From positions 96,001-160,000 of the IMG/VR virus record IMGVR_UViG_3300027754_000039: a stretch of 64,000 nucleotides of DNA. One strand, given 5' to 3'. Positions within the stretch are counted from its first letter, which is position 1. Every line of letters begins with the position of its first letter. The notes under the pieces were generated by a model. It saw only the letters and a list, made by a program, of their open reading frames with translations, searched no databases and was not told where the DNA came from. The stretch is from a virus. Position numbers and translations under genes: made by a program. Shown piece by piece: positions 1 through 48,126 of the stretch.

Positions 1-1573
1 CAAATGGATTTGCTCCTTTTTCTTCGCCACCTTCTTCTTCTTCACCTCCTCCACCAAACGGATTTGCTGATTCTTCACCACCTTCTTTTTCCTCTGGCTC
101 TTGATTTTTAGGGTCTGCTGGATCTTTACCTTCTTCTCCAATTTTAGTAAGACGGAAAGTATCTTTACCATCGGTGATTAAACCTGATTGTATTTCTGCC
201 GCTTCATCCAACGTAAAATTAAATATATTTTTATATATCCATTCTTTAGACATTATTTTCTTTTCAATCATATCGCCTGCTAAAGTTACTTTAGTAGCGT
301 ATAAAGTTAATTTCTCTTGTTCGTAAATTGTCGACGGAGAAGTCATTGTCAATTCAAAATCAACTAATTCTGCATTTGCAAATCCTTGAGCATATAAATG
401 CACAATAGCAATTTTATGTAATTCAGAAATTACAATTCTTTGAATTCTTTCAATGGTTCTAGCAAATCGAACATCTTCAGCAGCTAGTGTAGCCTTTCCT
501 GAAATTCCTTCTTCATATCCTAAAAATGCTTTGGGAACTTTTAAAGCTGCCATCATTTTATTACGAAGATATTCAATATCGTCAATACCTGTAAATTCCA
601 TACCTGCTAAAGTATCAATTTCGGTTCCTGAAGACCCACCCCTTACTGGTAAGAAATAATCTTCAAGCATATTTTGCATATTGAACTTTAAATTATAATC
701 TCCTGTCTGAGGGTCTACATAAGGTACCTTTTTCATTTGATTAATAATTTTTTGCATGTAAGCGTCAACTTCTTGAGGAGGAATATTTCCTACGTCTACT
801 TTAAATATACGTTTCTCAGGAGCTCTCATTACACGATGAATTAACATCGCATCTTCCATTAACGTTAATTGTTTCCAAACTTTTCTAGCTCCTTCAAGCA
901 TAGACTTACCATAGGGTAAGAAGTTTGAGTCATTAATTAAACGAAAATGAGCAATCTCAAAGTTTTCATATATAATATTTCCTCCACCTAACTGCTTGAA
1001 TTGCACGTGGTATGGATTGTCTAATGTCATTCCTTCTTCACGGATAATTTCATATGCAGACATCGGAGTAACATTTACAATTCCAATTTCTTCTTGAATG
1101 TCTAAATGCAAAAATAAATCTCCATATTTACACATATTACGAACCCATGGCCATAAATTAAATTCAATGTTTAAAACATCATAAAATAAATTATGTAGTA
1201 TTTTTTTAATATTTTCATTGTCACTGGTAATGCGCAATACATCACCAAAGTCATCTTTCATAACTGTTTCGTCTGCATAGATATCTAATGCCGATGATAA
1301 AATTGCGTCTTGATCCATAACTTCATAATCTGTATACAATTCAGTCTTAGATGAAAAGTAATTGTAATTTGGATTATATGTATTTAATGAATTAGGACGA
1401 ACCCCATGCAACCTAGTAAATCGATCAATAAATTTTGAGTTATGTGCGTTACCCATTGATTGTAAATGATCATTATCAACTACTTTAAGTTGATTCTTAC
1501 CCACTTTACGCACGATAACATTGGTATTAAAGAGACGCTTTAATCGACCGTATAATGTTTTATCTGCTGCCAT
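1..1573 (-). CDS. T4 gp20-like portal protein (3' end runs off the window)
   Basis: Translated manually (absent from ORF track): ATG at 1573, MAADKTLYGRLK...YGKSMLEGARKVWKQLTLMEDAMLIHRVMRAPEKRIFKVDVGNIP...EDYFLPVRGG...ALKVPKAFLG, the gp20 portal signature. Acidic tail has a repeated GGEE..ANPF. Confidence 0.95.
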   Translation of the reverse strand, partial: MAADKTLYGRLKRLFNTNVIVRKVGKNQLKVVDNDHLQSMGNAHNSKFIDRFTRLHGVRPNSLNTYNPNYNYFSSKTELYTDYEVMDQDAILSSALDIYADETVMKDDFGDVLRITSDNENIKKILHNLFYDVLNIEFNLWPWVRNMCKYGDLFLHLDIQEEIGIVNVTPMSAYEIIREEGMTLDNPYHVQFKQLGGGNIIYENFEIAHFRLINDSNFLPYGKSMLEGARKVWKQLTLMEDAMLIHRVMRAPEKRIFKVDVGNIPPQEVDAYMQKIINQMKKVPYVDPQTGDYNLKFNMQNMLEDYFLPVRGGSSGTEIDTLAGMEFTGIDDIEYLRNKMMAALKVPKAFLGYEEGISGKATLAAEDVRFARTIERIQRIVISELHKIAIVHLYAQGFANAELVDFELTMTSPSTIYEQEKLTLYATKVTLAGDMIEKKIMSKEWIYKNIFNFTLDEAAEIQSGLITDGKDTFRLTKIGEEGKDPADPKNQEPEEKEGGEESANPFGGGGEEEEGGEEKGANPF

Positions 1574-1593
1574 TTTTAATTAAACTATTTAAA

Positions 1594-1602
1594 ATAAATA
1601 TC
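1594..1602 (-). promoter_or_regulatory. Candidate late promoter GATATTTAT (portal); (G/T)ATATTTAT also at 4382, 11197, 14447/14453, 20825, 22853, 27084, 32088, 35304, 48932, 51463, 51873; CATATTTAT at 43120
   Basis: Recurs mostly 8-27 nt upstream of structural-gene starts (59 nt for the holin). Confidence 0.7.
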
Positions 1603-1626
1603 TATTTTCCTAATAACCAAGCTTTT

Positions 1627-2805
1627 TTAAAGAAGCCACGTTAAATCTTCGTCTTCGCCTCTTTTACCGGTGTCCATAGACCATCCAGTTTCTTTTCTCA
1701 TTCCAGCAGTATTACTGTAAACGCCTCGTCCATTACCAAAATAATCTAAAGTTTTTCTATTTAGATCCATTCCTTGCTGTCGAAGCTTTAAGGCAGTGTC
1801 TCTTATCCATAATCCAATAGAAAACGCCATTACTAAATCGTCGTTATAACCATGCTGTGCTTCAGGTTTTGACCCATTCCACACAAAAACATACAACTCT
1901 TCTATTAATCGTCTAGAGTGAATTACAGGAACTCGCTCTCTCATGTAAGTATCCAATTTGGAAATTACTAAAGGGCGAGTGCGAGATGAAGTTGTAAACC
2001 CAGCTGTCATTGCAGAAGTGTCTCTTAAATCAACATATCTAGCTAATTGTTGAGATACATCTGACAATCCACTATCTTTAGAAGAATAGTATAAATTTTT
2101 ATAGCCTCTGTCAATTGCTACTTGAATTGAAGCCCAACCCACATTAGCATTTTCAATCACTAGCAAAGCGTCATTGTACTCTGTTGCAATATTCACTAAC
2201 ATATTTCCATATTCTTTAGTGGATATTTGTCCTTTATATTCAGCTACTTGCGTTACAGATTCTACATCAATAACATGAAATGCTGAGTAGTCAGCTCCGT
2301 CACCTCGAGCAACGTCAGCTACAACTACATAATCTCTTTGGTAATTTGCTGGTTCCCATATCCATAAATCTCCACTATTTCTAGTTTCAATAGGATCTTT
2401 AATATGAGTTGTTTCATACCATTTTAATACCTGACCTTCAATTACAGAATGACCTGAAGTGATAAAGTCGCAGTTATGTGATACAATTCCATCTACTATA
2501 AAAATATTTCCGCGATCGACTTCTATAATATCATATAACTCTATAGGCTGAGTTTCGATATTAATATCAATAACGGTCACGATATTATTATCAATTGAAT
2601 CTATAATACTACCTATTTGAAGCTTGTTAGCCTCTAATTCTAATCTATTACCAATAAATTTATGTGTTTCAGAACATCTTAATATAATATTTGATGATAA
2701 TGTAATTACATAAATTTTATCTTTTCGTAACTTACGTACGCCGGCAAAATCTTGATACCCATTAGGCGTCAATATTTCAAATCTTGTATTGCGTTTTATT
2801 TGCAT
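1627..2805 (-). CDS. terL: Terminase large subunit, C-terminal (nuclease) part, preceded by a split-intein C fragment
   Basis: After ...IVSHN the ORF reads CDFITSG...VVVADVARGDGADYSAFHVID...LLVIENANVGW...HGYNDDLVMA (RNase H-like terminase nuclease). Confidence 0.95.
   Translation of the reverse strand: MQIKRNTRFEILTPNGYQDFAGVRKLRKDKIYVITLSSNIILRCSETHKFIGNRLELEANKLQIGSIIDSIDNNIVTVIDINIETQPIELYDIIEVDRGNIFIVDGIVSHNCDFITSGHSVIEGQVLKWYETTHIKDPIETRNSGDLWIWEPANYQRDYVVVADVARGDGADYSAFHVIDVESVTQVAEYKGQISTKEYGNMLVNIATEYNDALLVIENANVGWASIQVAIDRGYKNLYYSSKDSGLSDVSQQLARYVDLRDTSAMTAGFTTSSRTRPLVISKLDTYMRERVPVIHSRRLIEELYVFVWNGSKPEAQHGYNDDLVMAFSIGLWIRDTALKLRQQGMDLNRKTLDYFGNGRGVYSNTAGMRKETGWSMDTGKRGEDEDLTWLL
2473..2805 (-). 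mobile_element. Split intein C-fragment (IntC, 111 aa)
   Basis: Block B-like CSETH, block F YDII, block G VSHN, followed by +1 Cys (codon 2470-2472). Confidence 0.92.
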
Positions 2806-2819
2806 TTTATTGTTTAATT

Positions 2820-3668
2820 CTAATAGCTATCTAAATAATCTAAATTATATAAGTCTTCTAATGTTATTTTAAATTCTTCATTAGTTAGCTTATCTCGTAC
2901 CGTTACTTTTGATTCGCCCCATAAACAATCACATTCTTGAGCTGCTCCTTTAACTCCTAACAATTCATTTTGCTTATCTCTCCATATTTGATCTCTGTCA
3001 GGATGAACGTCCCAGCGAAGACGAATAGTATTAAACCTATTTCTACCTTCCTCAGCTCCTACCCATGTTTGATGAAAAAAGTTACCGGTGCCATTAGGAG
3101 TGGATAATATAATTGCTCCTCCTCCCGTTGCTAAAGTCTGTTGCGATGATATCCAAATTTCTTCTACATTGGAAATAAACGCAGCCTCATCTATTATTAA
3201 TAAAGACAATGCTTCTGAACGTCCAGAGTCTCCTGACGATGAAGTTGCTTTAATTTGAGAACCGTTATTAAGACGTAATGATAATTTATTATCTTCTGTT
3301 GCTGGCAATTTAAGCCATGAAGGTAAATTTTCATACATGACTTTTACCTTTAATACTAAATTTTTAGCTACTTCTTGTTTAGTAGCGATAACTAGAATAT
3401 TTTTATCCCCAAAAAACGTCATAAGCCAAAGAGCATAGCCGGCACTTAGAGTTGATATACCTAATTGCCTTGATTTTAGTATGACGTTATAATCGTGATC
3501 TCGTAGGTTTCTTAAGGTCTCCTCTTGAAATGTATATAAATGAAAAGGTATTTTTCCTTTTTGAGGATGTTGAATTTGGCAAAACTTTTTCATGAAGTGA
3601 ACAGGATCTGTTAAACATTTCTTGTACTCTTCTTTTATTATTTCTTTTAATGTCTTTGCTTGACTCAT
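2820..3668 (-). CDS. terL: Terminase large subunit, N-terminal (ATPase) part, ending in a split-intein N fragment
   Basis: ILKSRQLGIS (Walker A-like), LLIIDEAAF (Walker B), ILSTPNG; ends AAQECD|CLWGESKV... Confidence 0.95.
   Translation of the reverse strand: MSQAKTLKEIIKEEYKKCLTDPVHFMKKFCQIQHPQKGKIPFHLYTFQEETLRNLRDHDYNVILKSRQLGISTLSAGYALWLMTFFGDKNILVIATKQEVAKNLVLKVKVMYENLPSWLKLPATEDNKLSLRLNNGSQIKATSSSGDSGRSEALSLLIIDEAAFISNVEEIWISSQQTLATGGGAIILSTPNGTGNFFHQTWVGAEEGRNRFNTIRLRWDVHPDRDQIWRDKQNELLGVKGAAQECDCLWGESKVTVRDKLTNEEFKITLEDLYNLDYLDSY
2823..2927 (-). mobile_element. Split intein N-fragment (IntN, 35 aa, atypically short)
   Basis: CLWGESKVTVRDKLTNEEFKITLEDLYNLDYLDSY*: block A C-L-x-G-(D/E)-(S/T)-x-V. 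Ligating the exteins restores QECD-CDFITSG. Confidence 0.92.
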
Positions 3669-4652: not shown

Positions 4653-4874
4653 TTATATTGCAGCTTTAACTTTATCTAATAAGCCAGCTTTGATAAGCAT
4701 TTTAACAGCTAGCTTTTTTTCTTGAGTTGATTTAATTTCACGAAATGTATTTAATAAATGAGTAATAGTTTGTGCTGTTACAAACTCTAAATCACGTCCT
4801 TCAAATTCATCTACTAACTTTTTAAAATTGTCAAAGTCAATGGATTCATTAAGTATATCACGCAATTTAATCAT
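4653..4874 (-). CDS. Hypothetical protein with MIKLxDILNE leader (candidate internal head protein)
   Basis: Starts MIKLRDILNE|S. Confidence 0.7.
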   Translation of the reverse strand: MIKLRDILNESIDFDNFKKLVDEFEGRDLEFVTAQTITHLLNTFREIKSTQEKKLAVKMLIKAGLLDKVKAAI

Positions 4875-5399
4875 TTATTTTTTATCTTTAACAGGACCGC
4901 CTACTATCCAAGCATTGCAAGTACGAGACCCAGCACATTTGAATTTGTGCATTGTGCAGTATCCTAATTTTCCAGCTTCAATAGTATCCCAAGCGTCCTT
5001 TTCAGCTCCTTCTGTATCGTCTGTTTCTGGTTCTGCAGTTGGTACTACTGGCTCTTCTGCTTCAGCTACAGGAGCTTCTTGAGTTGGTTCTGCTTTTGGA
5101 CCTGGTTCGGTAGAAACTAGTCCTCCTTCAATACAACCTAAAATTCTTGATGTGATATTAAATGCGGCGCAATTATTACAACGAGATGATTTAGCTTCAT
5201 CTATAGTAGCCATTTTCCATTGCGCAGCTTTTGCTTTCCAAAATTTAATATTTGGATTGTTAGGATTTAAAGGACCATATCCGTATTTATCAATAGCAAT
5301 TTGACGATGAGCCAAATTAACTTCGATATTTTGAGTAGCTACAGGACATTTAGGAGTTTCTCCTTCTGCTTCCTTTAATAAATCAACTAACTTAATCAT
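4875..5399 (-). CDS. Cys-rich hypothetical protein with MIKLxDLLKE leader
   Basis: MIKLVDLLKE|A; CNNC...GYCTMHKFKCAGSRTCNAW. Confidence 0.75.
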   Translation of the reverse strand: MIKLVDLLKEAEGETPKCPVATQNIEVNLAHRQIAIDKYGYGPLNPNNPNIKFWKAKAAQWKMATIDEAKSSRCNNCAAFNITSRILGCIEGGLVSTEPGPKAEPTQEAPVAEAEEPVVPTAEPETDDTEGAEKDAWDTIEAGKLGYCTMHKFKCAGSRTCNAWIVGGPVKDKK

Positions 5400-6463
5400 T
5401 ATTTTTTAACTTTGATAATTGTATTGGTAAGCATGGTATCTAATCGTTTATTAACAGATTCTTTTGCATATGGAGGTCCTACATTAATATCTCCTTGACC
5501 TTTTCCTCCTAATTTACTTTTAATAGCACTTAATTCAGGTCCGCCAACTTTTGGATCGAATTGAGGCATATCTTTACGTGCTGGAGCATCTGGGTTATTA
5601 GGCAAATTGCTTAAATTTTCTCCTATTTTTTCTGCAATTGCAAGTCTTAATGCATAAATAGCTTCTGGAGTGCTAGGTTTTCCAGGTCCTACTTTATCCG
5701 TTACTCTATCTCCTAAATCTCCAAGCCATTTTAATACAATATTAATGTCTTTATTAGCTCCTGCAGTTAAATCTTCCATCATTTTGTCATTAAGTAGTGC
5801 CCCGGGCGCTCCTTTATCTGTTTGCTTATTAATATTAGACATAATCATTTTAGCTATATCTCCAGCTCCTTTACCCATGATGTTAGTTTTAAATCCTTCA
5901 GATTGAGATGGAATATCTTTACCAGGGCCTAAATCAGCAGCAATTGCAATTTGTGCCGCTGCTAGTTTTTCATTAGTGCCTTTGCCAGGCCAATTAACAT
6001 TAGTTCCTGAAATTTTAGCTTTGTCTCCTCCAATTGAAATAGCACCTGACCATCGATGATGTCCGTCAATAATTAAATCTCCGGAAGTTACAACTCCTTG
6101 AGCTGTTGGTCCCGAAGAGATAGCATCCGTAAGCGTTTTAGCTGATCCTAATGGATATGACACTGATTTCATTAAATCAATTTCGCTTTGTGTTGGTTTA
6201 TAACCCATTGCCTGTCCGCTAGCTGTTGACGTAGCGACAGTATCGTCTGTATTTGATCCGTCTGTTTGTGGATTTAGTAAAATATCTTTACGTACGATAT
6301 CAGATTTACCTTCAGGGGTATCTAAAAATGCTCTAGTAGCTGCAGGGCCTGTTTGAAATGCTTTGTTTAATTCAGCAGCTAATTCTTCTTTAGATTTAGC
6401 TTCTTTTAAAATACCCGCTAACTTTTGTAATCTAGCGGCTTCTGTAATTAATTCTTGTTTCAT
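5399..6463 (-). CDS. ParB/sulfiredoxin-like domain protein with RLQKLAGILKE leader
   Basis: PTQSEI...LIIDGHHRW motif typical of the ParB/Srx superfamily. Confidence 0.65.
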   Translation of the reverse strand: MKQELITEAARLQKLAGILKEAKSKEELAAELNKAFQTGPAATRAFLDTPEGKSDIVRKDILLNPQTDGSNTDDTVATSTASGQAMGYKPTQSEIDLMKSVSYPLGSAKTLTDAISSGPTAQGVVTSGDLIIDGHHRWSGAISIGGDKAKISGTNVNWPGKGTNEKLAAAQIAIAADLGPGKDIPSQSEGFKTNIMGKGAGDIAKMIMSNINKQTDKGAPGALLNDKMMEDLTAGANKDINIVLKWLGDLGDRVTDKVGPGKPSTPEAIYALRLAIAEKIGENLSNLPNNPDAPARKDMPQFDPKVGGPELSAIKSKLGGKGQGDINVGPPYAKESVNKRLDTMLTNTIIKVKK

Positions 6464-6484
6464 TTTAATTTATATTATAATATA

Positions 6485-6751
6485 TTACCACATTCTACAT
6501 GACCAATAATTTGCTTTCCATCTAGGTCCTGGATTTTCACAATGATGCCTAGCTCTATAAGATTTTCTACGAGCCGGAATAGATTTTTTAATTCTCATAT
6601 TCGGGTCTCCAAATCCTACTTTAACTACATTACCTTTGTCATTTGTTACGTATACAGCACGTTTTCTAGGGCCGCCTGGAGTGTAAAATGGCTTTCCTAA
6701 TTTAACTTTACGTCCGTGATATTCTGCTTCCTCTATTTTTGTTTTAGAATC
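6485..6751 (-). CDS. Conserved basic domain (DUF5754-like) with no start codon of its own; reachable only by +1 shift from the 6744..7172 ORF
   Basis: Manual translation: DSKTKIEEAEYHGRKVKLGKPFYTPGGPRKRAVYVTNDKGNVVKVGFGDPNMRIKKSIPARRKSYRARHHCENPGPRWKANYWSCRMW*. In-frame stop at 6779-6781 and no ATG before the domain. Confidence 0.8.
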   Translation of the reverse strand, partial: DSKTKIEEAEYHGRKVKLGKPFYTPGGPRKRAVYVTNDKGNVVKVGFGDPNMRIKKSIPARRKSYRARHHCENPGPRWKANYWSCRMW

Positions 6752-7172
6752 TTTTTTTTTTCGATTCTTTAAGCTTCTTTAAATCTCCTACTACTAAATC
6801 TGTTGAAGAAGTTTTTGGCATCTTTGCCTTTTTATCATAGTCTGCAGTATCAACACCTTTTTGCTGCTTCTTAGTTCCATTAGCCATCATATCTAACTCA
6901 GCTTCAGATTGTCTATAATCTTCAGTTTCATTGTCAAACCAACCTTCCATAGTCGCTGCTCTATTTAAAGCAGTTGCAACTACATCTTGATCTTGTTCCG
7001 CAAATTCATCAAAAGCTAATTCATAAAACGCGTCCCAATCATCATCTTCATAATAATTTTTTAATTTGGCTTTATTCTTACCAAAGAATTTAAACACAGC
7101 TTCTTCAGAATATTCTGGCTTTTCAATTTCTGTAGCTTCTTTTAATTTTAATAGATCTTTTAACTTAATCAT
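6744..7172 (-). CDS. Acidic protein with MIKLKDLL leader; N-terminal half of a frameshifted gene
   Basis: MIKLKDLLKLKE|A; stop lies 6 nt after the A10 run at 6752-6761. Confidence 0.75.
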   Translation of the reverse strand: MIKLKDLLKLKEATEIEKPEYSEEAVFKFFGKNKAKLKNYYEDDDWDAFYELAFDEFAEQDQDVVATALNRAATMEGWFDNETEDYRQSEAELDMMANGTKKQQKGVDTADYDKKAKMPKTSSTDLVVGDLKKLKESKKKRF

Positions 7173-8142: not shown

Positions 8143-10908
8143 CTACTTTCTAAAAGAACTGGCTAATCCACCTAATATAAATTTTCCGGTAATTTTAAAG
8201 GGTTTGGCGTAAATTGATTTATCTCTGATGACAATTCCTTCATGATCTGATACAGGTCCTAAAGGCGAATCTAACTTTTCTAATACAGCATCTCCTAATT
8301 TCATAGTAGCTAAATAAATAATATATCCATCTATTGCTGCTTGGAAGTCTTTAGGGTTTGCTACAAACTCACTTAATGGTATACCATCGGAAATTTTAAT
8401 TAAAACTTCTTTGGATAAAGCTGATATTGTTTTGCCGTCAACAGTCTTAATAGTCACGTCTGGTACCTGTGCTTTTGCTAGCCATTGAGAAAGAGTTTTA
8501 GTTTCTTTTTCAGCTGCTGTTCTAGACACTGTATATTTTTTACTTAATTCTCCAGCTAAGTCAGGTTCTCCTTTTAAAGTCGTCGGAATAGATCCTAAAA
8601 CTTCATAGCCATTTTTATTAGCTACTACAGCTAGATTATTTAGTAAATCTTGCATTGCTGCTTTGTTAGCTGACTTTTCTTTAGTAGCTCTTTTAGTTGG
8701 AGTTACTTGCTCTATTTCTAATAAACCATGAACTGCTAGAAAATTCTTATTGTAAGACAACACATTGGTTGAACCTGCTACATACTCTATATTAAATAGA
8801 ATATTTGGGTTGTCCCATAATCCTAACTTTTTCAATGCCGGAGTACAAGCTGGTATTGAATCGTTAAAAATATCTAATACTTTTCCGCCTACTTTAATCA
8901 TTCCATGACCAGCTCCAAATCTATCTGTTAATTCTGCTTTGGTAATTCCTTTAACATCTAATGGTTTATTAGAACCTCTATCCATTACAAAGACTTTTTT
9001 ACCATCTAAAGTAATTAAACGAATAGAAGCATTAACTCCATCTATTTTAACAGACGCAGGTCCTTTCTTTAAATAATTTACTGATTGTTGAAATACAGTT
9101 ACTAAATCTTTTCCTGTCTTTACCCAATCAATATTAAATGGATGCGCCATATGTCCTCCAGCTCCTCCTTCTTTTAAAAGAGATTCTTGAGTAGGCATTT
9201 TAACTCCGAATACTGTTTTAGAAAATACATCAAAGTCATATTCAAATTCACGACCAATGTTTGAATCTAAAAATGTTTTAAGTTTGTTAATTTTTTCATT
9301 ATGAGCTTTTAACTGCTCTGGAGACATAGAACCTTCAGAAACAGATTCTGGAACACAATTAGGAACTTTTTTAGATCCTTTCTTTTTCATTCCAACTTGA
9401 TGATATCCTGACCAACATGGATCGTTTTTATCTTCTTTAATAGAAGTAACTGTCGGCTTACCATAAATTCGTTTAACAATTGATTTGTCTACTTTAGATA
9501 ATTTTCTTTTATAATAACCATCTTTCATCATTTCTAAACTTTTATCTCCGGCAACTCCTTTAATAACAGTCTCGTCGGTTACTACATCGATATCTGATCG
9601 TTTCGCAAGTATTTCTTCCATTTTCATAGAAGCTTCTATATACCAACTTTTAGTTTTTAATAAATTAAATAATTTAGATATTAATTCTTTTTTAGCTTCT
9701 TTTTTATTATTGGTACCTAACAATGAAATTTTATTTCCAAAAAGTGTTGGTTTGAATATAATAAATGCATCTGCAATAGTATCAGCATCTACATCTTCTA
9801 AATAAACTGCTTTGTATTTTGTTTGCAATTCTGTGGCATCATTAGCTGAAAAATCTAATCCTGCTTTAGAATAAGTATCCGAATACATACTCCATACAAT
9901 GTCCATATCTTCTTTTGATAAAGCAGCTAAATTGAAATCTTTCCATGTATTTGGTTTCAATGCAGCTTCTTTCATAAATGCTGAAGGAGTAATATACTTT
10001 TCTGCTTTTATCATTTTAATTAGAAATCCTGCAATCAAGCCTCCCGGTGCAATAGCTATGGTAGTTAATCCAATAGCCTTTAAAATGTCTTTCATTTGCT
10101 CGCCAATTTCAGATTTTTGAGCATCTGTTAATTCTATTTTACCCATTGCTGCTTTTGCTAATAAAGAAAAAGCTTTTTTGGTTTCAGTGCCTTCTTGTTT
10201 TAAAGCTGCAATGAATTTTTTAAATTTCATTTTTAATTCATTCATGGACACTGCTTCCGTTAACTCTAACGATTCTCTCCACCAATGTTTGGAAAATAGA
10301 TTTGACTCTTTAATTCCTTCTATTTTATCAAATACCATATCAGCTGTCTTTTTATCATACCAACCAAATACAGCTTCGAATTGTTTAACTTTTTTATCTC
10401 TAGGTATTTTAGCTCCTAAAGCTTTTCTCAATGTAGTACCTGACATTTCTCCATATCCAGGAATGGTTATGCGAACGTGAGGAGCTACTACTAAATATCC
10501 ATGTTTATCAAATCCTTGAAGACTTGATTTATTTTTTTTATAATCTTGAAAATATGAATCCCCGCCGCTAACTTTTTTTCCTATTTTAAATCTAGGATCT
10601 TCTGCCATATCTTTTGCTCCTACCATAAACACTACTGCAGTGTCTTTAGGATTTAATTTAGATAAAATCTCCTCCGATTTATATGGATTCTTTACCTGTA
10701 CAAGTCGATCGTCGAAACCATAATGTCTTATAATGTCTTGCTTATCTTTGAAAGAAAAAGGGCTCTTTGGGGGTTGTACGACGTTTGACGTTACGATGTA
10801 AGCGTTAGCAGCTCCAAACTCTTTTTGAAGCCATTTGAATGCCGCAGCATGATGTTGACCAAAAGGTTGAAACCTGCCAGGGTATATTGCTATTATATTT
10901 TTTATCAT
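8143..10908 (-). CDS. Multi-module protein: HIGH-superfamily nucleotidyltransferase (cytidylyl/NMNAT-like) ... C-terminal KxDG ligase-like (DUF6267-like) domain; 921 aa
   Basis: Start revised to ATG 10908, 2 nt after the upstream stop. IYPGRFQPFGQHH...MSGTTLR; CWSGY..VGMKKKG.KKVPNCVP module; EGGAGGHMAHPF...VKIDGVN...HEGIVIR...FKITG. Confidence 0.75.
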   Translation of the reverse strand: MIKNIIAIYPGRFQPFGQHHAAAFKWLQKEFGAANAYIVTSNVVQPPKSPFSFKDKQDIIRHYGFDDRLVQVKNPYKSEEILSKLNPKDTAVVFMVGAKDMAEDPRFKIGKKVSGGDSYFQDYKKNKSSLQGFDKHGYLVVAPHVRITIPGYGEMSGTTLRKALGAKIPRDKKVKQFEAVFGWYDKKTADMVFDKIEGIKESNLFSKHWWRESLELTEAVSMNELKMKFKKFIAALKQEGTETKKAFSLLAKAAMGKIELTDAQKSEIGEQMKDILKAIGLTTIAIAPGGLIAGFLIKMIKAEKYITPSAFMKEAALKPNTWKDFNLAALSKEDMDIVWSMYSDTYSKAGLDFSANDATELQTKYKAVYLEDVDADTIADAFIIFKPTLFGNKISLLGTNNKKEAKKELISKLFNLLKTKSWYIEASMKMEEILAKRSDIDVVTDETVIKGVAGDKSLEMMKDGYYKRKLSKVDKSIVKRIYGKPTVTSIKEDKNDPCWSGYHQVGMKKKGSKKVPNCVPESVSEGSMSPEQLKAHNEKINKLKTFLDSNIGREFEYDFDVFSKTVFGVKMPTQESLLKEGGAGGHMAHPFNIDWVKTGKDLVTVFQQSVNYLKKGPASVKIDGVNASIRLITLDGKKVFVMDRGSNKPLDVKGITKAELTDRFGAGHGMIKVGGKVLDIFNDSIPACTPALKKLGLWDNPNILFNIEYVAGSTNVLSYNKNFLAVHGLLEIEQVTPTKRATKEKSANKAAMQDLLNNLAVVANKNGYEVLGSIPTTLKGEPDLAGELSKKYTVSRTAAEKETKTLSQWLAKAQVPDVTIKTVDGKTISALSKEVLIKISDGIPLSEFVANPKDFQAAIDGYIIYLATMKLGDAVLEKLDSPLGPVSDHEGIVIRDKSIYAKPFKITGKFILGGLASSFRK

Positions 10909-11211: not shown

Positions 11212-11577
11212 TTAATTAAAATTCGTATTGTAATTATATGTTATTTCTTCACCGGGCTGAATATCTTGTATTGAATATAGTTCTATTACTGATTTTTGTA
11301 TATTTGAATTACAAATAGCGTTAGGATATATAGAATGATTGTATATACATCCATATCCTAACGCAAGTATATATGTGTTTACTGTTATTTTATTTGGCCA
11401 TGGCATAACTCTTTCTTTTAAACTACTATAATTAATATTGTTAATATTAAACTCATTTAACTTAAAAAAATGGCATTCCTCAATTAAACTGCCCGAATTA
11501 ATTAACGCAGAAGTAAATACACCTCTTCCATGTATTAATGAATCGTCGACATATATATTAGGATTCTGATAAAGCAT
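11212..11577 (-). CDS. SET-domain protein (putative protein lysine methyltransferase)
   Basis: SLIHGRGVF...IYNHSIYPNA...IQPGEEITYNY (GxG, NHS, EELxxxY motifs). Confidence 0.9.
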   Translation of the reverse strand: MLYQNPNIYVDDSLIHGRGVFTSALINSGSLIEECHFFKLNEFNINNINYSSLKERVMPWPNKITVNTYILALGYGCIYNHSIYPNAICNSNIQKSVIELYSIQDIQPGEEITYNYNTNFN

Positions 11578-14460: not shown

Positions 14461-17400
14461 CTAAATGTAATAGATCTTAGAATTTCCGTTGGTTTTAACA
14501 ATTTCAATTAATTTATCAACTACATCTCTCATGGAATCTATATGAGATATAACTAACATAAAAGAGAATTGAGTTTTAAGATACTCAAATAAATTAAACA
14601 TAGAGTTTAAATTGTTAGAATCTAAAACTCCAAAGCCTTCATCAATAGCTAGGAAATTAGGTCTAGGTAGTGATGATATATTTATTAACGCAGTTCTAAT
14701 AGCTAAAGACGATATAAATTTCTCCATACCAGAAGTTAATTCTATAGACCAAAAATTATCTTGATCGTAAACAATATAACAATTAATATTTTTACCATCC
14801 ATTTCCAGCATTATACTAAAATCAACTAACTGAGTTAGGATGTTATTTATTTCCTGTTCTATAAATGGTACAGCGGTGGTAATTAAATCGTAAGGAACTC
14901 CGTCACGATTGACTGCTATTAAATAATATTCGTAAAATTTATATTGTTGAGTTAAATCTTTTAGTTTGGCAATAGACTCTTCAGATTTTTCTTTATCTTT
15001 TTGAGCTACTAGTAAATTGGAATGGCAAGTTAAAATTAAATCATTTACATCACTTAATTCATCTTTAAGTACATCCATTGTAGTATTTAGTAAAGATATA
15101 GAAGTTCTATTTTCTTTATTCTTTTTAATTACAGCTTCTTTAGTATAATACTCATCAACCTTTCTTTGAGTTTCTAGTAATTTAGTTTCTGCTAGCCCAC
15201 GTTTAGTTTTTAAATCATTAATCGTAGATTCGGTATTATTTTTATTAGTATTAGCTTGAGTTAATTTCCTTTGTAATTCATAATACGTTTCTTGTTCAGT
15301 AACTGACTTTGACAACTCTGTCATTTTATCAACTACTTCCTGCAGCTTAGCATTTAAAGATACTAGACCTTCTTTATCATCTTGTATTGAAGATTTTGTA
15401 GCAATAGCATCTTTAACAAAAATATTATCCATACAATATGAACAATTCTCATCATACTTAAGATCATTAAGCTTGGCCATTTTATCTTCTTTGATACGAA
15501 TCTCTGCCTTGCGTTTTTCTATTTGTCCATGAAATATTAATTCTGAATTTTTCAATCCATTATAAACGGCTATACGTGCTTTTATCTCTACAATATTATA
15601 ATTTTCTAATTCCTTTTCAATTTTATCTACAGCAGCTTTAGCTTCAGACAGTGAAATGTCATTAGCGTTTAACTGAGTATTGATTTGATCTAATAACGCA
15701 TTGCATTTAGATACTAAAGTTTCCAATTCAAATATATTTTCAATTGAAGAATCAATTGGTACTAAATCTGAAGTTAGATTTAATATTTGTGCATGGATAT
15801 CTGCAATTTTAGTATCTAACTCTGCCTTGTCCATTAAATGACCTTTATGCTGTTTAGAGTAAGTATCAATGTTAATTAATGCTCCTGACAATTGAGTAGC
15901 AAAGTCTTGCTTTTGATATTCTTTAACTAGCGTAGCTACTTCTTTAATATCTTCATTTGCTATTTTATTTAAGTCTTCAAATATATTAATGTCTAGAAAC
16001 TGTGCTAGTAAGTCTTTACGATCTTTTTGAGCCATATCAATAAATCCAGTATTGTTATTTTGTACTGACAATGCAGTTAAGACAAAATCTTCATAGGTAC
16101 CTAGCAAATTTCTAATGTGATCATTTGTTTCACTTCGTTCTTTTCCATTTAAAGATTCTTTATTTCCTAAATCATCTATACAATAAAAATCAACATCAAC
16201 TCGAACGTGTTCACCTCTTCCTTTAGTTCCTGTTTTTTCAATAAAGTAATCTCGACCATCTAATTCAAAATTAAATTTACATTTAAACGAACCTGATTTA
16301 TTATTTAATACACTTGAAGCTTTAGATGTTCTTCCACATTTGTCAAATATACAATAAGTAATTGAATCTAACATGGTAGACTTTCCAGAGGCATTAGGTG
16401 CAAATATGCCTAGCACTCCTTGCATATTTGTAAAGTCAATTACATTATCTACACCGTAACTAAACATATTTGAAAATTCAAATTTCTTAGGAATCCACGA
16501 TACATTTCTAGAAATTTCTAAATGAGGCAATCCTGAATTAACTGTTCTATTAACGTGACGAATGCCGTCGAGTATATCATCATCTAAAGCAAATTTATTA
16601 TCTAGATATTTAGTAATAAGTTCATTTTGATATTCTACATCTCGAACATCACCTATATTAATTTTATGAACTCGTGTATTATTTTGACTGAAATCATTTA
16701 TTTTTTGAATTGTATATTCTTCAATATCATACTGAGACTTAATGTCAGCTAATATCGTTTTTAAATCTGCTGATTCAGTATTTTTAACTTTAATACGCAA
16801 TCGAATCTTTTTATCTAATACAACTGGCAATATTGGAGCATGTACACCATTGTCAATTTCCAATGTATAATAACAAATGTCATTTGCAATTTCTACAAAG
16901 TCAGCTTTGCAAGTTGCAGTATCCCATACTAACATTCCATGTATTAAAGCTTCTGCATAATTTTGTTGAATTAACGAACCACAATATGCAATAGTCTTTT
17001 CTTGATTGAGGTATTGAGCTGGTTTATGAATATCTCCTAACAAAGTTAATTTATATCCTTCAAATGTATCAATGTCTACATGATCATTTTGCAATCTAAA
17101 TCCAATATCAGTCATTGCATTATTTACAGCTCCGTGATGTAACGCAATTTTAAAATCTCCTTCAAAACTATTTGCTTTGATGAAATCTTTAGGCTTATCA
17201 AAAACAGACATAACTGTAAAGTGTTTATCGGATATATGATATACCCCTGACTCTTTGAGATAATGTAGATTTGGGTGATTAAGTGCATTGACAATAGGAG
17301 TTAATGCATCTAACCTAGACATATTGTTTAAGTTGCAATCGTGATTACCTGTAATTAATATTGTAGGAGCAATATCTGCAAACATTTTAAAGAATTCTTG

Positions 17401-17619
17401 CACTGATTGAATCAACTCAGGCGTCATATCAGTCTTAGCGTGAACAATATCTCCTCCTAAAAAGATAATATCATTTGGCCCTACTGTCTTTTTAATAGCT
17501 TCAACAGTTCTTTCAAATACAGTTTTATATTCTTGATGCCTTTTTAAATTTCGAATGTGAATATCAGCTACGTGATATATTTTTTCAATGTGATTTATTC
17601 CTATTTCTATTCTATTCAT
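14461..17619 (-). CDS. Fused Mre11/SbcD-like nuclease + Rad50/SbcC-like ATPase (gp47-gp46 fusion)
   Basis: ADIH..GD..H..GNHD..HHG..GDIH phosphoesterase motifs; FAPNASGKST Walker A; CSYC hook at 15433-15444; LTSGMEK signature; LAIDEGF Walker B; ISH. Confidence 0.95.
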   Translation of the reverse strand: MNRIEIGINHIEKIYHVADIHIRNLKRHQEYKTVFERTVEAIKKTVGPNDIIFLGGDIVHAKTDMTPELIQSVQEFFKMFADIAPTILITGNHDCNLNNMSRLDALTPIVNALNHPNLHYLKESGVYHISDKHFTVMSVFDKPKDFIKANSFEGDFKIALHHGAVNNAMTDIGFRLQNDHVDIDTFEGYKLTLLGDIHKPAQYLNQEKTIAYCGSLIQQNYAEALIHGMLVWDTATCKADFVEIANDICYYTLEIDNGVHAPILPVVLDKKIRLRIKVKNTESADLKTILADIKSQYDIEEYTIQKINDFSQNNTRVHKINIGDVRDVEYQNELITKYLDNKFALDDDILDGIRHVNRTVNSGLPHLEISRNVSWIPKKFEFSNMFSYGVDNVIDFTNMQGVLGIFAPNASGKSTMLDSITYCIFDKCGRTSKASSVLNNKSGSFKCKFNFELDGRDYFIEKTGTKGRGEHVRVDVDFYCIDDLGNKESLNGKERSETNDHIRNLLGTYEDFVLTALSVQNNNTGFIDMAQKDRKDLLAQFLDINIFEDLNKIANEDIKEVATLVKEYQKQDFATQLSGALINIDTYSKQHKGHLMDKAELDTKIADIHAQILNLTSDLVPIDSSIENIFELETLVSKCNALLDQINTQLNANDISLSEAKAAVDKIEKELENYNIVEIKARIAVYNGLKNSELIFHGQIEKRKAEIRIKEDKMAKLNDLKYDENCSYCMDNIFVKDAIATKSSIQDDKEGLVSLNAKLQEVVDKMTELSKSVTEQETYYELQRKLTQANTNKNNTESTINDLKTKRGLAETKLLETQRKVDEYYTKEAVIKKNKENRTSISLLNTTMDVLKDELSDVNDLILTCHSNLLVAQKDKEKSEESIAKLKDLTQQYKFYEYYLIAVNRDGVPYDLITTAVPFIEQEINNILTQLVDFSIMLEMDGKNINCYIVYDQDNFWSIELTSGMEKFISSLAIRTALINISSLPRPNFLAIDEGFGVLDSNNLNSMFNLFEYLKTQFSFMLVISHIDSMRDVVDKLIEIVKTNGNSKIYYI

Positions 17620-18606: not shown

Positions 18607-19011
18607 TTATACTAACCAATCTTCCGGTATTATCTTGTCCGCAAATTTAAAGTTATACTTGATACACCAATCTGCATAAGTAGTCTTAGATGCTTTACTA
18701 ATTTTTGTTTTTGAATTTTGAAATAAAAAGCGAATATCTAACTCAGGATGTTGAGCTTTGATTAAGATATGTTTCTTTCGATCGTCAGTTAAAAATCTTC
18801 CTTTGGTTTCTACAAAAATACCATTAGGCAATTTGAAGTCAGGATGATATTTGTGTTTAGTCTCTGGTTTGACATATTCAATAATATGCTTTTCATAATC
18901 ACCGTCTATCCCTTTAGATTTAAGTGATTCGTCAATTTCCATTTCTAAGCCACTACGGAATCCGTACTTAGCCGCAACTGCTTTTTTACTATAAGGATTT
19001 CTTCTAGCCAT
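18607..19011 (-). CDS. T7 endonuclease I-like Holliday junction resolvase
   Basis: FRSGLE...YHPDF.LPNGIFVETKGRF...DRKKH...LDIRFLF. Confidence 0.9.
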   Translation of the reverse strand: MARRNPYSKKAVAAKYGFRSGLEMEIDESLKSKGIDGDYEKHIIEYVKPETKHKYHPDFKLPNGIFVETKGRFLTDDRKKHILIKAQHPELDIRFLFQNSKTKISKASKTTYADWCIKYNFKFADKIIPEDWLV

Positions 19012-46573: not shown

Positions 46574-46840
46574 TTATTCATTTGTATTATCCAAATTTTC
46601 TTTTGACCGATCCCAAATATTTGCAAACCTTTCAGATCCATTTATTCCTATATGCACATACTTAGTACCGTCATGTATTGACTGTGCTTTGTAAATCCAT
46701 CGCTCTCCATTTTTCTTAAGCTCTAAAATTTTACAAACATAGTCGGCGGTTAAAAAAGTTACTGTAACAGTGTCTCCTATTTTAAAAGAAGGCTTTTTCA
46801 TTTTCTCCGGAGGAGCTGTTTCTCTTTTCTTTTTAGCCAT
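46574..46840 (-). CDS. Hypothetical protein (KOW/SH3-like)
   Basis: FKIGDTVTV. Confidence 0.65.
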   Translation of the reverse strand: MAKKKRETAPPEKMKKPSFKIGDTVTVTFLTADYVCKILELKKNGERWIYKAQSIHDGTKYVHIGINGSERFANIWDRSKENLDNTNE

Positions 46841-48126
46841 TATACAGTTCTTTTATTACCATGAATTACCTTTACCGTCGGAAATCTTAAACTATAATTT
46901 CCTGATTGGTTTTGAGTTTCTTCGAAATATTTAACGGTAATTATTTTATCAAGTATTTCATTTGGATTAGCTTTAAAGAACTCACGCTCTTCAATAGTAA
47001 AGCCAGATCCTACTGAAACTCTATTACCTTTATGCTCTATTACTACATTGGATAAAACATCTTTTGTAATTTCCAATCCATTCTCAATCATTCTAAAAGG
47101 ACCAAACTCTAAATCAATTACTGTATATTCAGCATCGTGAAATGATTTACACTTAAGCATATTTTTAGTACGTTTACCTTCATAAACACGATTTTTACGC
47201 AGGATCAATCCTTCCCAACCTTTATTATCCGCTGATGTCATTAAGTCGGTAAATTGTCCAGGTTCTGTGATGATTTCCTGGGTTACCAACTCTAAATACT
47301 TCATATCCTTAATTAACTTACATAAAGCATGGTATCTTAAAGAGTAGCTGCTAGCTCCTATCTTATCTCTGAATTCTTGACCTGTGATAATATCAAATAC
47401 TAAATACTTAGGATTGTCAATAGTATGATCCTTCTTACGAATTTGTTTCATAACACCTTGAAAGTCATCTGACCCGTCTTTGTTAGTTAAGCAAATTTCT
47501 CCGTCAAGCACTACATCCTTCATTCCTAAGCTAGCAATTTCATCTTCAACCTTTTTAAGAGTTTCAAATTGGTTACCTTGACGAGACCAAAGTGATACTT
47601 TGCCATTTTCATCTACAACACCTAAGCACCTTACTCCATCTAATTTTCTAGAAGCATACCAAGTATCTGCTGCAAAATCAACTTCTACATCTTCAAATGG
47701 AGTTGCTAATGCGACATCAAAGGTTGGAATTAAATCTGGAATGATTTTGTTAATTAAACTATCACCCATTCTAATTTCCAAATCCTTACCAATAATCTTA
47801 TAAATTAAATTTTTAAATTCTTCATGCTCGTAGCAAAAGTTATTTACAGAATTAATAGCTTTGTGACCAGTTACTTCTCGCTTACGTAAAATGTCAAGCA
47901 TTTCAAACAAGTCCTTAAACTCATACAACACACCTAAGTCTTCACTGTAATTCTTTTCAAGAGTAGCCGGCGTTACATAATATTGATAAAATGGATTATA
48001 TGTATAATACAATACCTTTTTAATGAACTCGTCATCTTTATACTTTTCCAAAATGACCTTTTTGTCATTTGTACTATTAGTTGAATTAAGCTCATCAACT
48101 ACCTTTTGTAACAATTTAAAATCCAT
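46840..48126 (-). CDS. ATP-dependent DNA ligase
   Basis: ASRKLDGVRC, VLDGEI, WEGLILRK, MLKCK, LRFPT. Confidence 0.95.
   Translation of the reverse strand: MDFKLLQKVVDELNSTNSTNDKKVILEKYKDDEFIKKVLYYTYNPFYQYYVTPATLEKNYSEDLGVLYEFKDLFEMLDILRKREVTGHKAINSVNNFCYEHEEFKNLIYKIIGKDLEIRMGDSLINKIIPDLIPTFDVALATPFEDVEVDFAADTWYASRKLDGVRCLGVVDENGKVSLWSRQGNQFETLKKVEDEIASLGMKDVVLDGEICLTNKDGSDDFQGVMKQIRKKDHTIDNPKYLVFDIITGQEFRDKIGASSYSLRYHALCKLIKDMKYLELVTQEIITEPGQFTDLMTSADNKGWEGLILRKNRVYEGKRTKNMLKCKSFHDAEYTVIDLEFGPFRMIENGLEITKDVLSNVVIEHKGNRVSVGSGFTIEEREFFKANPNEILDKIITVKYFEETQNQSGNYSLRFPTVKVIHGNKRTV

What the first reader, a model, noticed from the sequence alone, without database searches (positions are those of the whole stretch)
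8143..10908. 921-aa 'string of beads' protein: nucleotidyltransferase + ligase-like domain, with modules separated by [ILMV]-x-E sites
Seen (numbering of the 969-aa track ORF): a HIGH-type NTase with the non-canonical motif FQPFGQHH (aa 49-249), a helical/hydrophobic module, an alpha/beta module (363-540), a CWxGY..VPNCVP micro-module, a small module, and a C-terminal domain with KIDG (aa 669-672), HEGIVIR and FKITG resembling ligase motifs I, IV and V. Module borders fall at IKE249, LTE266, MKE362, IKE540, VSE573 and LKE628, matching the leader cleavage motif. Known: KxDG marks covalent-AMP nucleotidyltransferases (RNA/DNA ligases); HIGH-fold enzymes include NMNAT, used by phages to rebuild NAD+. 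Inference: a protease-processed polyprotein delivering an adenylyltransferase and an RNA-ligase-like enzyme, possibly countering NAD-depleting or tRNA-cleaving defences. This is the best candidate in the window for an undescribed system.
Basis: partly seen in the sequence, partly recalled or inferred. Interest (0 to 1): 0.78.

Follow-up and report, generated by a model that had tools for sequence, protein, structure and literature searches.

The report
Phage enzyme string with protease joints
One phage gene strings together a nucleotide-transferring enzyme, an acetyltransferase-like fold and an RNA-ligase-like enzyme, joined at sites that match the cutting preference of the phage's own capsid protease, so it may be a cut-apart set of enzymes, possibly delivered with the DNA.

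Summary
Residues 1-201 are a HIGH-type nucleotidyltransferase (PF01467). Residues 581-921 fold (pLDDT 92) as a covalent nucleotidyltransferase closest to T4 RNA ligase 1, with invariant KxDG, EG and K motifs. The 'alpha/beta module' is a GNAT fold. In about 370 metagenomic relatives the NTase and the ligase-like domain usually occur together, fused in either order or as adjacent genes; this includes DUF6267 plus 'cytitidyltransferase' in a cyanophage. The modules between them are present, absent, permuted or replaced (Tad3 anti-Thoeris, DUF5661, DUF6934, DUF192). Joints fall directly after [LIVM]-x-E in 57 of 79 independent joints, against 1.8% by chance. The genome encodes a T4 gp21-type prohead protease (known specificity L/I-x-E) and at least 10 proteins with a MIKLKDILxE leader. 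A relative carries that leader on a stand-alone ligase-like protein. Best reading: a cassette polyprotein cut by the prohead protease, probably capsid cargo. Cleavage, packaging and substrates are not shown, and this protein has no leader. First readers of this scan noted the same fusion on several other genomes.

The parts
8143..10908 (-). Whole gene, 921 aa: NT-W-H-AB-CW-S-LIG string
   Evidence: ORF list and translation. Start fixed by homologue alignment. Module map from phmmer against 369 relatives.
10306..10908 (-). NT module, aa 1-201: HIGH-type (cytidylyltransferase-like) nucleotidyltransferase. Variant HIGH motif PFGQHH (aa 15-20) and MSGTTLR (aa 155-161). Ends in IKE201.
   Evidence: PF01467 E 3.4e-5, 24.5 bits against a 21-bit cut-off. 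Profile against PDB: PPAT 3do8 E 1e-5, archaeal NMNAT 1f9a E 5e-3. Distant relatives keep the canonical PFHxGH.
10255..10305 (-). W mini-module, aa 202-218 (LFSKHWW..LELTE), ends in LTE218
   Evidence: Present or absent as a unit in relatives. Its end triplet is [LIVM]xE in 78 of 82.
9967..10254 (-). H module, aa 219-314: five helices with a hydrophobic helix-PGG-helix hairpin, ends in MKE314
   Evidence: AF2 model of aa 202-580, helices at model 21-100. Weak LETM1-related match. Present or absent in relatives.
9433..9966 (-). AB module, aa 315-492: GNAT (acetyltransferase-like) fold, ends in IKE492
   Evidence: AF2 pLDDT 75-92 here. All 50 VIA-wide rows listed are GNAT or GNAT-like folds; best is 4ua3_B, Z 10.1, rmsd 4.2, 138 aligned. 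Foldseek prob 1.00.
9334..9432 (-). CW micro-module, aa 493-525 (DPCWSGY..VPNCVPE SVSE), two Cys, basic, ends in VSE525
   Evidence: PHROG hits 9737, 4359, 727 and others. tblastn hits in cyanophage proteins. In a related phage it is the N-terminus of a separate leader-bearing gene with DUF5661. AF2 confidence is low.
9169..9333 (-). S module, aa 526-580: one long helix plus tail, ends in LKE580
   Evidence: helix at model 329-348. Present or absent in relatives; end triplet is [LIVM]xE in 96 of 106.
8146..9168 (-). LIG module, aa 581-921: covalent nucleotidyltransferase (RNA-ligase-like). Starts GGAGGHMAHPF. Motif I K621 (KIDGVN), motif III E708 (NIEYV), motif IV E890-G891, motif V K905 (FKITG).
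   Evidence: Invariant columns in alignments A1 and A5. AF2 pLDDT 92.1, pTM 0.87. VIA-wide ranks 1-20 are all ligases or capping enzymes; best is T4 Rnl1 9do4_B, Z 8.2, rmsd 3.6, 175 aligned. Best Foldseek hit is T4 Rnl1, E 3e-3.
9046..9048 (-). Codon of Lys621, predicted nucleotidyl acceptor
   Evidence: Invariant K of KxDG in 23- and 19-sequence alignments. The role is inferred from the superfamily.
4653..7172 (-). Context: three downstream genes whose products start MIKL(R/V/K)D(I/L)L..E (gene starts at 4874, 5399, 7172)
   Evidence: Synonymous sites vary and the upstream DNA is unrelated, so the leader is selected as a peptide.
11212..11577 (-). Context: separate SET-domain gene two genes upstream. 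A BFVD relative named 'SET domain-containing protein' also holds the ligase-like domain.
   Evidence: PF00856 E 2.9e-12. BFVD A0A218ML49, 971 aa, 52% identical over the LIG model.

Best explanation
The gene encodes a cassette polyprotein of a 181.6-kb aquatic myophage with T4-type head maturation. Two enzymes anchor the ends. One is a HIGH-type nucleotidyltransferase (NT, aa 1-201). The other is an RNA-ligase-like covalent nucleotidyltransferase (LIG, aa 581-921, predicted to take a nucleotide on Lys621). Between them lie exchangeable modules: W, a helical hairpin module, a GNAT fold, a Cys motif and a helical module. Each module ends in (L/I/V/M)-x-E inside a poorly ordered linker. Inferred: the phage's gp21-type prohead protease cuts after these Glu residues and frees the modules, exposing the conserved GGAGGHM N-terminus of LIG. 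Inferred with less certainty: this happens inside the prohead, so the pieces travel in the capsid and enter the host with the DNA, as T4 internal proteins and Alt do. NT and LIG are an obligate pair that acts on a shared, still unknown phosphate-bearing substrate. My guess is nucleic-acid end repair or adenylylation, or resynthesis of a dinucleotide, at the onset of infection. Shown: folds, motifs, modularity, junction motif, the protease gene, the leader family. Inferred: cleavage, packaging, chemistry.
For: Folds and motifs. Pairing of NT and LIG: fused as NT..LIG, fused as LIG..NT, or adjacent genes in three unrelated contigs and in P-SSM4. Modularity: 33 different module orders among 369 relatives, including a permuted order in P0054. 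Joints: [LIVM]xE at 420 of 477 module ends against 1.8% background, with a variable middle residue and a mostly small P1' residue. 57 of 79 independent joints behind unrelated segments carry the motif. The residue before GGAxGHM is E in 176 of 190 and P3 is L/I/V in 190 of 190. 13 cluster representatives start directly M-GGAAGHM and 39 have a short leader ending [LIVM]xE, as expected if GG is the mature N-terminus. Foreign beads obey the same rule: P0142 is NT, DUF5661, W, Tad3 (PF25185, E 8.6e-29), LIG and one more module, with every joint after [LIVM]xE. Tad3 is a tested anti-Thoeris protein (PMC13728456). Protease: PF03420 at C1:93363-93812, E 2e-31, intact. T4 gp21 cuts after L/I-x-E (PMC9026906; PMC12991175). 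The gp23-like capsid protein has five such sites in its first 60 aa. Leaders: at least 10 unrelated genes in this genome start MIKLKDILxE. Stand-alone LIG of a relative starts MIKLKQLLPVITE|GG. In a syntenic 179.6-kb phage NT and LIG are separate genes among leader-bearing genes, one of which starts with the CW motif. Linkers H|AB, AB|CW and S|LIG have pLDDT below 50. A cyanophage cytidylyltransferase was found in a virion proteome (S-CREM2 ORF154, 3 peptides; PMC10665884). Modules are basic, pI 8.7-9.6.
Against: This protein starts directly with strand 1 of the NTase and has no leader. T4 internal proteins need one. 203 of 241 NT-first relatives also lack a leader. About a dozen relatives have Cys rather than Glu before LIG, which a Glu-specific protease should not cut; the E/C position may instead serve the domain itself. 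Some LIG-NT fusions have no [LIVM]xE between the domains, so the pair can work uncut. Internal [LIVM]xE sites are also fairly conserved. The gene lies next to DNA-metabolism genes (SbcCD, primase). The S-CREM2 evidence is 3 peptides, its authors allow contamination, and I did not test homology of that ORF to this protein. No proteomic or biochemical data exist for this phage.
Confidence: 0.45

Rival explanations
1. Uncut multidomain cytoplasmic enzyme. The protein works full length in nucleic-acid or nucleotide metabolism, and the [LIVM]xE joints are scars of ancestral gene fusions: leaders of once-separate genes kept as linkers, with no present function.
For: No N-terminal leader. Position beside SbcCD and primase. 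Direct LIG-NT fusions without the motif exist. Cys replaces Glu at some LIG joints. Internal motif sites are conserved too.
Against: Scars should decay. Instead P3 and P1 are kept while the middle residue varies, across 33 module orders and behind unrelated modules. 13 relatives begin exactly at GG. Tad3 works as a homodimer that grips ThsB with its N-terminal helices, which is hard to reconcile with burial inside a 1002-aa chain.
Confidence: 0.3
2. Cut but not packaged. The prohead protease, or another Glu-specific protease, processes the leaderless polyprotein in the cytoplasm late in infection, releasing enzymes that act in the producing cell.
For: T4 gp21 cleaves a disordered loop of a cytoplasmic host CD-NTase at an LxE-type site in vivo (PMC12991175). 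This protein lacks a leader. Linkers are predicted disordered.
Against: Stand-alone LIG in relatives carries the same leader type as the putative cargo set. Late release of an anti-Thoeris module or a repair enzyme in a cell about to lyse has no obvious use. gp21 activity outside proheads is short-lived.
Confidence: 0.15
3. One reading: the NTase is an NMNAT that rebuilds NAD+ against NAD-depleting defences, and the ligase repairs tRNA cut by anticodon nucleases.
For: Weak profile similarity of NT to archaeal NMNAT as well as to PPAT. LIG is structurally closest to T4 Rnl1, a tRNA repair ligase. One relative carries an anti-Thoeris module.
Against: No NAMPT (PF04095) in the genome. I did not search for a polynucleotide kinase or phosphatase partner. 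LIG lacks the C-terminal tRNA-binding domain of Rnl1, since the chain ends 16 aa after motif V. The strict NT-LIG coupling suggests one joint pathway rather than two separate ones.
Confidence: 0.1

Closest known systems
T4 internal proteins IPI-III and Alt, processed by prohead protease gp21
   Same: The genome has a gp21-type protease and a family of 10-13-aa leaders ending L-x-E on unrelated proteins. Cleavage-type motifs sit at module ends. The cargo includes anti-defence functions (IPI* in T4, a Tad3 module in a relative).
   Different: In T4 each cargo is a separate gene with its own N-terminal leader. Here up to seven units are concatenated in one ORF without an N-terminal leader. The units are shuffled between phages and anchored by two enzymes.
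T4 RNA ligase 1 (Rnl1) and other ATP-dependent RNA/DNA ligases and capping enzymes
   Same: Nucleotidyltransferase fold (Z 8.2 to Rnl1, with ranks 1-20 all from the superfamily). Motifs I, III, IV and V occur in order with an invariant Lys. An upstream H-x-x-H-P-F-D element sits where Rnl1 has its PMEKFFN element; the Rnl1 element is recalled from memory and placed by the model 10 to Rnl1 72 register.
   Different: No sequence-level match to any Pfam, PHROG, NCBIfam or PDB ligase. Motif V is K-x-T rather than K-x-K. A 130-aa insert lies between motifs IIIa and IV. There is no OB or tRNA-binding domain. The domain is mostly coupled to a HIGH NTase.
Pfam DUF6267 plus 'cytitidyltransferase' of T4-like cyanophages (P-SSM4 PSSM4_154 and PSSM4_155)
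   Same: The same two-enzyme pair as overlapping adjacent genes. PSSM4_154 matches DUF6267 at E 7e-97, starts ..KHLEHPED, and has KWDG, HEGYV and YKI. Atlas neighbours of LIG carry DUF6267 in 21-24% of members.
   Different: The DUF6267 model does not hit this genome even at E 10. hhalign gives only a weak motif IV-V match, E 0.0015. In cyanophages the pair is not embedded in a bead string.
Processed head proteins of giant phages (phiKZ, 201phi2-1, SPN3US)
   Same: gp21-related proteases cut many head and ejection proteins after Glu at short x-x-E motifs, with redundant sites in propeptides (PMC9026906).
   Different: There, N-terminal propeptides are removed from single proteins. Strings of several enzymes released from one chain are not described in the papers I read.
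Tad3 (anti-Thoeris, binds ThsB)
   Same: A Tad3-family domain (E 8.6e-29) occupies a bead position in relative P0142, flanked by [LIVM]xE.
   Different: This window's protein has no Tad3 module. Its beads are a GNAT fold, a helical hairpin, a Cys motif and a helical module.

Membership tests
Covalent nucleotidyltransferases (ATP-dependent ligases / capping enzymes) | Motif I KxDG with the nucleotide-accepting Lys | tested here: met
   K621-I-D-G-V-N. K, D, G and N are invariant in 23 and 19 sequences.
Covalent nucleotidyltransferases (ATP-dependent ligases / capping enzymes) | Motifs III (acidic), IV (EG) and V (K-x-K) in order after motif I | tested here: inconclusive
   E708 (NIEYV) is nearly invariant. 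E890-G891 and K905 are invariant. The second Lys of motif V is Thr907 (K-I-T-G), a departure.
Covalent nucleotidyltransferases (ATP-dependent ligases / capping enzymes) | Nucleotidyltransferase domain fold | tested here: met
   AF2 pLDDT 92. VIA-wide ranks 1-20 are all ligases or capping enzymes, Z 8.2-5.3. The best Foldseek rows are RNA ligases. Z values are middling; it is the consistency of the list that carries the weight.
Covalent nucleotidyltransferases (ATP-dependent ligases / capping enzymes) | Formation of a Lys-NMP adduct and strand joining | not testable with these tools
   Needs alpha-32P NTP labelling and ligation assays.
Rnl1 family (T4 RnlA) | C-terminal helical tRNA-specificity domain after motif V | tested here: not met
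   The chain ends 16 residues after K905. hhalign to T4 RnlA is not significant; the only local match is NIEYV to NFEFV.
Pfam DUF6267 | Match to PF19782 above its 27-bit cut-off | tested here: not met
   No hit at E up to 1 on the domain or E up to 10 on the genome. This is a distant relative only.
HIGH-signature nucleotidyltransferases (PF01467, cytidylyltransferase-like) | Pfam match above cut-off and the ISxTxxR-type second motif | tested here: met
   24.5 bits against a 21-bit cut-off. MSGTTLR at 155-161. PPAT and NMNAT are the top PDB profile hits.
HIGH-signature nucleotidyltransferases (PF01467, cytidylyltransferase-like) | Canonical H-x-G-H | tested here: not met
   P-F-G-Q-H-H here and G-[QKR]-H-H in close relatives. 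More distant relatives have PFHKGH, PFHLGH or PPHxGH. Activity of the variant is unknown.
NMNAT of an NAD+ reconstitution pathway (NARP2-type) | Partner NAMPT/NadV in the same genome | tested here: not met
   PF04095 is absent from the 181.6-kb record, which CheckV estimates as 100% complete.
T4-type capsid cargo (CTS plus gp21 processing) | gp21-type prohead protease in the genome | tested here: met
   PF03420 E 2e-31, 207-aa open frame.
T4-type capsid cargo (CTS plus gp21 processing) | N-terminal targeting leader on the protein itself | tested here: not met
   The protein starts MIKNIIAIYPGRF, which is strand 1 of the NTase. A subfamily has the leader MNLGxWLVEQIITE, but this one does not.
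T4-type capsid cargo (CTS plus gp21 processing) | L/I-x-E sites in accessible segments | tested here: met
   Six module ends carry the motif. Linkers have pLDDT below 50. The motif is conserved at joints in relatives.
T4-type capsid cargo (CTS plus gp21 processing) | Presence in virions and cleavage at those sites | not testable with these tools
   The only lead is indirect: S-CREM2 virion proteome, cytidylyltransferase ORF154, 3 peptides. I did not check homology of that ORF.
GNAT acetyltransferases (AB module) | GNAT fold | tested here: met
   All 50 VIA rows listed are GNAT or GNAT-like, Z 8.2-10.1. Foldseek prob 1.00.
GNAT acetyltransferases (AB module) | Acetyl-CoA pyrophosphate-binding motif Q/R-x-x-G-x-G/A | tested here: inconclusive
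   No such motif is evident by eye in the stretch LLGTNNKKEAKKEL after strand 4. No Pfam GNAT hit.

The most novel reading that the evidence does not exclude
Aquatic myophages with T4-type head maturation encode their first-strike proteins as shuffle-able cassettes. These are anti-defence binders such as Tad3, GNAT- and SET-type modifiers, and a previously unrecognised nucleotidyltransferase plus ligase-like enzyme pair. The cassettes are strung into polyproteins whose joints are prohead-protease sites. The capsid protease doubles as the maturase of an injected enzyme cocktail, and cleavage activates the ligase-like enzyme by exposing its GGAAGHM N-terminus.
Probability: 0.3. Interest if true: 0.9.

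Novelty: new variant of a known kind. Interest (0 to 1): 0.72.

Why it matters
If the string is cut as proposed, tailed phages use a polyprotein strategy to load and release several enzymes and anti-defence proteins. That strategy is otherwise known from RNA viruses. The joints would then be a simple sequence rule ([LIVM]-x-E before a new domain) for finding unknown cargo and anti-defence modules in metagenomes. Separately, the work assigns a fold and catalytic motifs to a large, purely viral, unannotated family (4123 hits in the representative library). That family is distantly related to DUF6267, and it links the long-puzzling 'cytitidyltransferase' of T4-like cyanophages (gene cluster T4-GC 190 in P-SSM4) to a ligase-like partner. 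This makes the function of the pair directly testable.

Tried and rejected
1. Sequence searches of the ligase-like domain found no credible match. Libraries tried: Pfam, PHROGs, NCBIfam and PDB sequences. One relative gave RNA_ligase at E 0.016.
2. hhalign of the domain profile against T4 RnlA was not significant.
3. Complex prediction of NT (A4) with LIG (A5) gave no verdict, score 0.00.
4. The replicative-ligase idea is rejected: a separate PF01068 DNA ligase lies at window 46840-48126.
5. There is no PF09414 RNA ligase and no NAMPT in the genome.
6. The T4 late promoter TATAAATA is not enriched and is not upstream of the gene.
7. The Sf-CH8 'cytidyltransferase' hit shares only the CW motif; it has no match to the ligase-like domain and no HIGH motif by eye.
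8. Overall enrichment of [ILMV]xE in the protein is rejected: 14 sites against 12.7 expected.
9. Column-wise conservation as a discriminator of junction sites is rejected by the control.
10. A longer ORF start with a hidden leader is rejected: the upstream frame overlaps the 90-aa gene and relatives start at MIKN.
11. Literature searches for DUF6267, Mel-JY01 and a cytidylyltransferase-RNA ligase fusion found no papers.
Full report
**What is there.**
- The window is part of a 181,588-bp virus record: GC about 32%, nearly all genes on the minus strand.
- The finding is one gene, 8143..10908(-), 921 aa. The longer 969-aa track ORF starts at a TTG that overlaps the upstream 90-aa gene in another frame, and all close relatives align from the Met at 10908.

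**The two end domains.**
- Residues 1-201 match Pfam CTP_transf_like above its cut-off.
- As a profile they find phosphopantetheine adenylyltransferases and archaeal NMNAT in the PDB.
- The HIGH motif is altered to G-Q-H-H. More distant relatives have the canonical H-x-G-H. The second motif, MSGTTLR, is intact.
- Residues 574-921 have no match in Pfam, PHROGs, NCBIfam or PDB sequences.
- An alignment of 23 homologues shows invariant K, D, G, N (KIDGVN), D-R, N, E-G and K.
- The AlphaFold model is confident: pLDDT 92.1, pTM 0.87.
- In the search that does not depend on Foldseek, ranks 1-20 are all RNA ligases, DNA ligases or capping enzymes. The best is T4 RNA ligase 1 (Z 8.2, rmsd 3.6, 175 residues aligned). 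The best Foldseek hit is also T4 Rnl1.
- The Z values are middling. The uniform list and the ordered motifs carry the argument.
- Departures from the superfamily pattern: motif V is K-x-T, a roughly 130-residue insert precedes motif IV, and there is no OB or tRNA-binding domain.
- The phage has a separate ordinary ATP DNA ligase, so this is not its replicative ligase.

**The middle.**
- A model of residues 202-580 (pLDDT 70) shows a five-helix module with a hydrophobic helix-PGG-helix hairpin.
- It also shows a well-predicted alpha/beta domain, an unconfident Cys-motif stretch and a single long helix.
- The alpha/beta domain is a GNAT fold: all 50 rows listed in the wide search are GNAT or GNAT-like, Z up to 10.1, and Foldseek gives prob 1.00.
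- The linkers at H|AB, AB|CW and S|LIG have pLDDT below 50.

**Relatives.**
- The family is large and, as far as its sources show, viral: 4123 hits in the representative library, and the Atlas neighbours are 100% viruses.
- NT and LIG mostly travel together. They occur fused as NT..LIG, fused in the reverse order, or as adjacent genes in a TARA T4-like contig, a small Logan contig, an ENA contig and a syntenic 179.6-kb JGI contig.
- In Prochlorococcus phage P-SSM4 the gene overlapping the start of 'cytitidyltransferase' is DUF6267 (E 7e-97). It shows ..HLEHPED, KWDG, HEGYV and YKI. So the same pair sits in this T4-like cyanophage, and DUF6267 is a distant sister of the LIG domain.
- Microcystis phage Mel-JY01 has a 639-aa NT-LIG fusion.
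- Between the anchors the modules vary freely. I counted 33 different module orders among 369 proteins, including a permuted one.
- Foreign modules recognised by Pfam are Tad3, DUF5661, DUF6934, DUF192 and GNAT. A BFVD protein named 'SET domain-containing protein' also holds the LIG domain.

**The joints.**
- Overall the protein has no excess of [ILMV]xE: 14 sites against 12.7 expected.
- The module ends, however, carry the motif in 420 of 477 cases in relatives, against 1.8% per position. The middle residue varies and the next residue is mostly small.
- In a test free of shared ancestry of the upstream part, 57 of 79 distinct joints between an unrelated segment and a known module have the motif exactly at -3..-1.
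- The residue before GGAxGHM is Glu in 176 of 190, and the residue two before it is L/I/V in all 190.
- Thirteen cluster representatives begin M-GGAAGHM. Thirty-nine have a 5-25-residue leader ending in the motif.
- In P0142 the tested anti-Thoeris protein Tad3 sits as a bead with the motif on both sides.
- Control: internal motif sites are also fairly conserved by column, so it is the position rule that counts, not conservation.
- Exception: about a dozen relatives have Cys in place of Glu before LIG. This is unexplained.

**The protease and the leaders.**
- The genome encodes an intact T4 gp21-type prohead protease, PF03420, E 2e-31.
- gp21 cuts after Glu in L/I-x-E, and 10-19-residue leaders target T4 internal proteins to the prohead (PMC9026906; PMC3012670).
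- The gp23-like capsid protein here has five such sites in its first 60 residues.
- At least ten unrelated genes start MIKLKDILxE. Synonymous sites vary and the upstream DNA is unrelated, so the peptide itself is selected.
- Three of these genes lie just downstream of the finding.
- A relative's stand-alone LIG starts MIKLKQLLPVITE|GG.
- In the syntenic contig NT and LIG are separate genes among leader-bearing genes, one of which begins with the CW motif straight after its leader.
- A subfamily of NT-first fusions has an N-terminal leader, MNLGxWLVEQIITE. This window's protein does not.

**Reading.**
- The most economical explanation is a cassette polyprotein whose units are freed by the prohead protease.
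- Packaging is likely by analogy, by the leader evidence in relatives, and by one virion proteome that contains a cyanophage cytidylyltransferase (3 peptides; its authors caution about contamination; PMC10665884). It is weakened by the missing leader here.
- gp21 can also cut a cytoplasmic host protein at an LxE-type site in a disordered loop (PMC12991175). Cutting without packaging therefore remains a rival, as does an uncut multidomain enzyme with fusion scars.
- The chemistry of the NT-LIG pair is unknown. I commit only to Lys621 nucleotidylation by LIG and NMP transfer to a phosphate acceptor by NT, acting in one pathway.
- The NAD+ idea lacks a NAMPT partner. A complex prediction of NT with LIG gave no verdict.

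**Novelty.**
- I found no paper on DUF6267, on this fusion or on phage cargo polyproteins in the library searched.
- First-stage notes of this scan describe the same fusion on several other genomes. They are unchecked and are not independent evidence.
- I rate it a new variant of a known kind (gp21-processed head cargo) that carries a newly recognised ligase-like family.

Noticed in passing
window 5399-6463 (-): 354-aa protein with leader-like start MKQELITE..GILKE and a DGHHRW motif that by eye looks ParB/sulfiredoxin-like. It lies in the leader-bearing cluster. Pfam found nothing and PHROGs gave only one weak match (phrog_2859).
   Followed up: no
window 11212-11577 (-): Small SET-domain protein (PF00856, E 2.9e-12) two genes upstream. 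A BFVD relative named 'SET domain-containing protein' (A0A218ML49, 971 aa) also holds the ligase-like domain, so this neighbour may belong to the same functional set.
   Followed up: partly
relatives P0004, P0012, P0036, P0054, P0122, P0126, P0136, P0157, P0211, P0290: Variant joint L-L-x-C|GGAGGHM: Cys instead of Glu before the ligase-like domain, usually after a distinct inserted module ending ..ELLMC. Either it is not cleaved, or the E/C position has a role inside the domain.
   Followed up: partly
window 9334-9432 (-); L009:14539-15132: The DPCW.GY..G.K.K.G..VPNCVP micro-motif recurs in many cyanophage proteins (PHROGs 9737, 4359, 727; tblastn hits at 60-76% identity over about 30 aa). It sits next to DUF5661 in relatives. 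Function unknown.
   Followed up: partly
window 14461-17619 (-): Mre11/SbcD-like phosphoesterase and Rad50/SbcC-like ATPase are fused in one 1052-aa ORF. The same fusion (1054 aa) is in the syntenic contig L009.
   Followed up: no
window 18607-19011 (-): T7-type endonuclease I (PF05367, E 7e-59) in a myophage with T4-type head genes. The closest cultured relatives by primase are Flavobacterium phage immuto (44%) and Microcystis phage Mel-JY01 (41%).
   Followed up: no
genome C1:165621-169062 (beyond the window end): Seven consecutive genes start MIKL(K/R/E)(D/N/L)(I/L)L.E with otherwise unrelated bodies. The leader is conserved as a peptide, not as DNA.
   Followed up: partly
genome C1:about 88.9-90.7 kb (-), before the window start: The gp23-like major capsid protein starts MSLHSILNE and has five [LIVM]xE sites in its first 60 residues, the last being LVTE|A. 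This looks like a T4-style delta propeptide.
   Followed up: partly
L013 (P-SSM4) 1501-3565: PSSM4_154 (T4-GC 71, DUF6267) carries covalent-nucleotidyltransferase motifs and overlaps the start of cytitidyltransferase PSSM4_155. I found no paper on DUF6267.
   Followed up: partly
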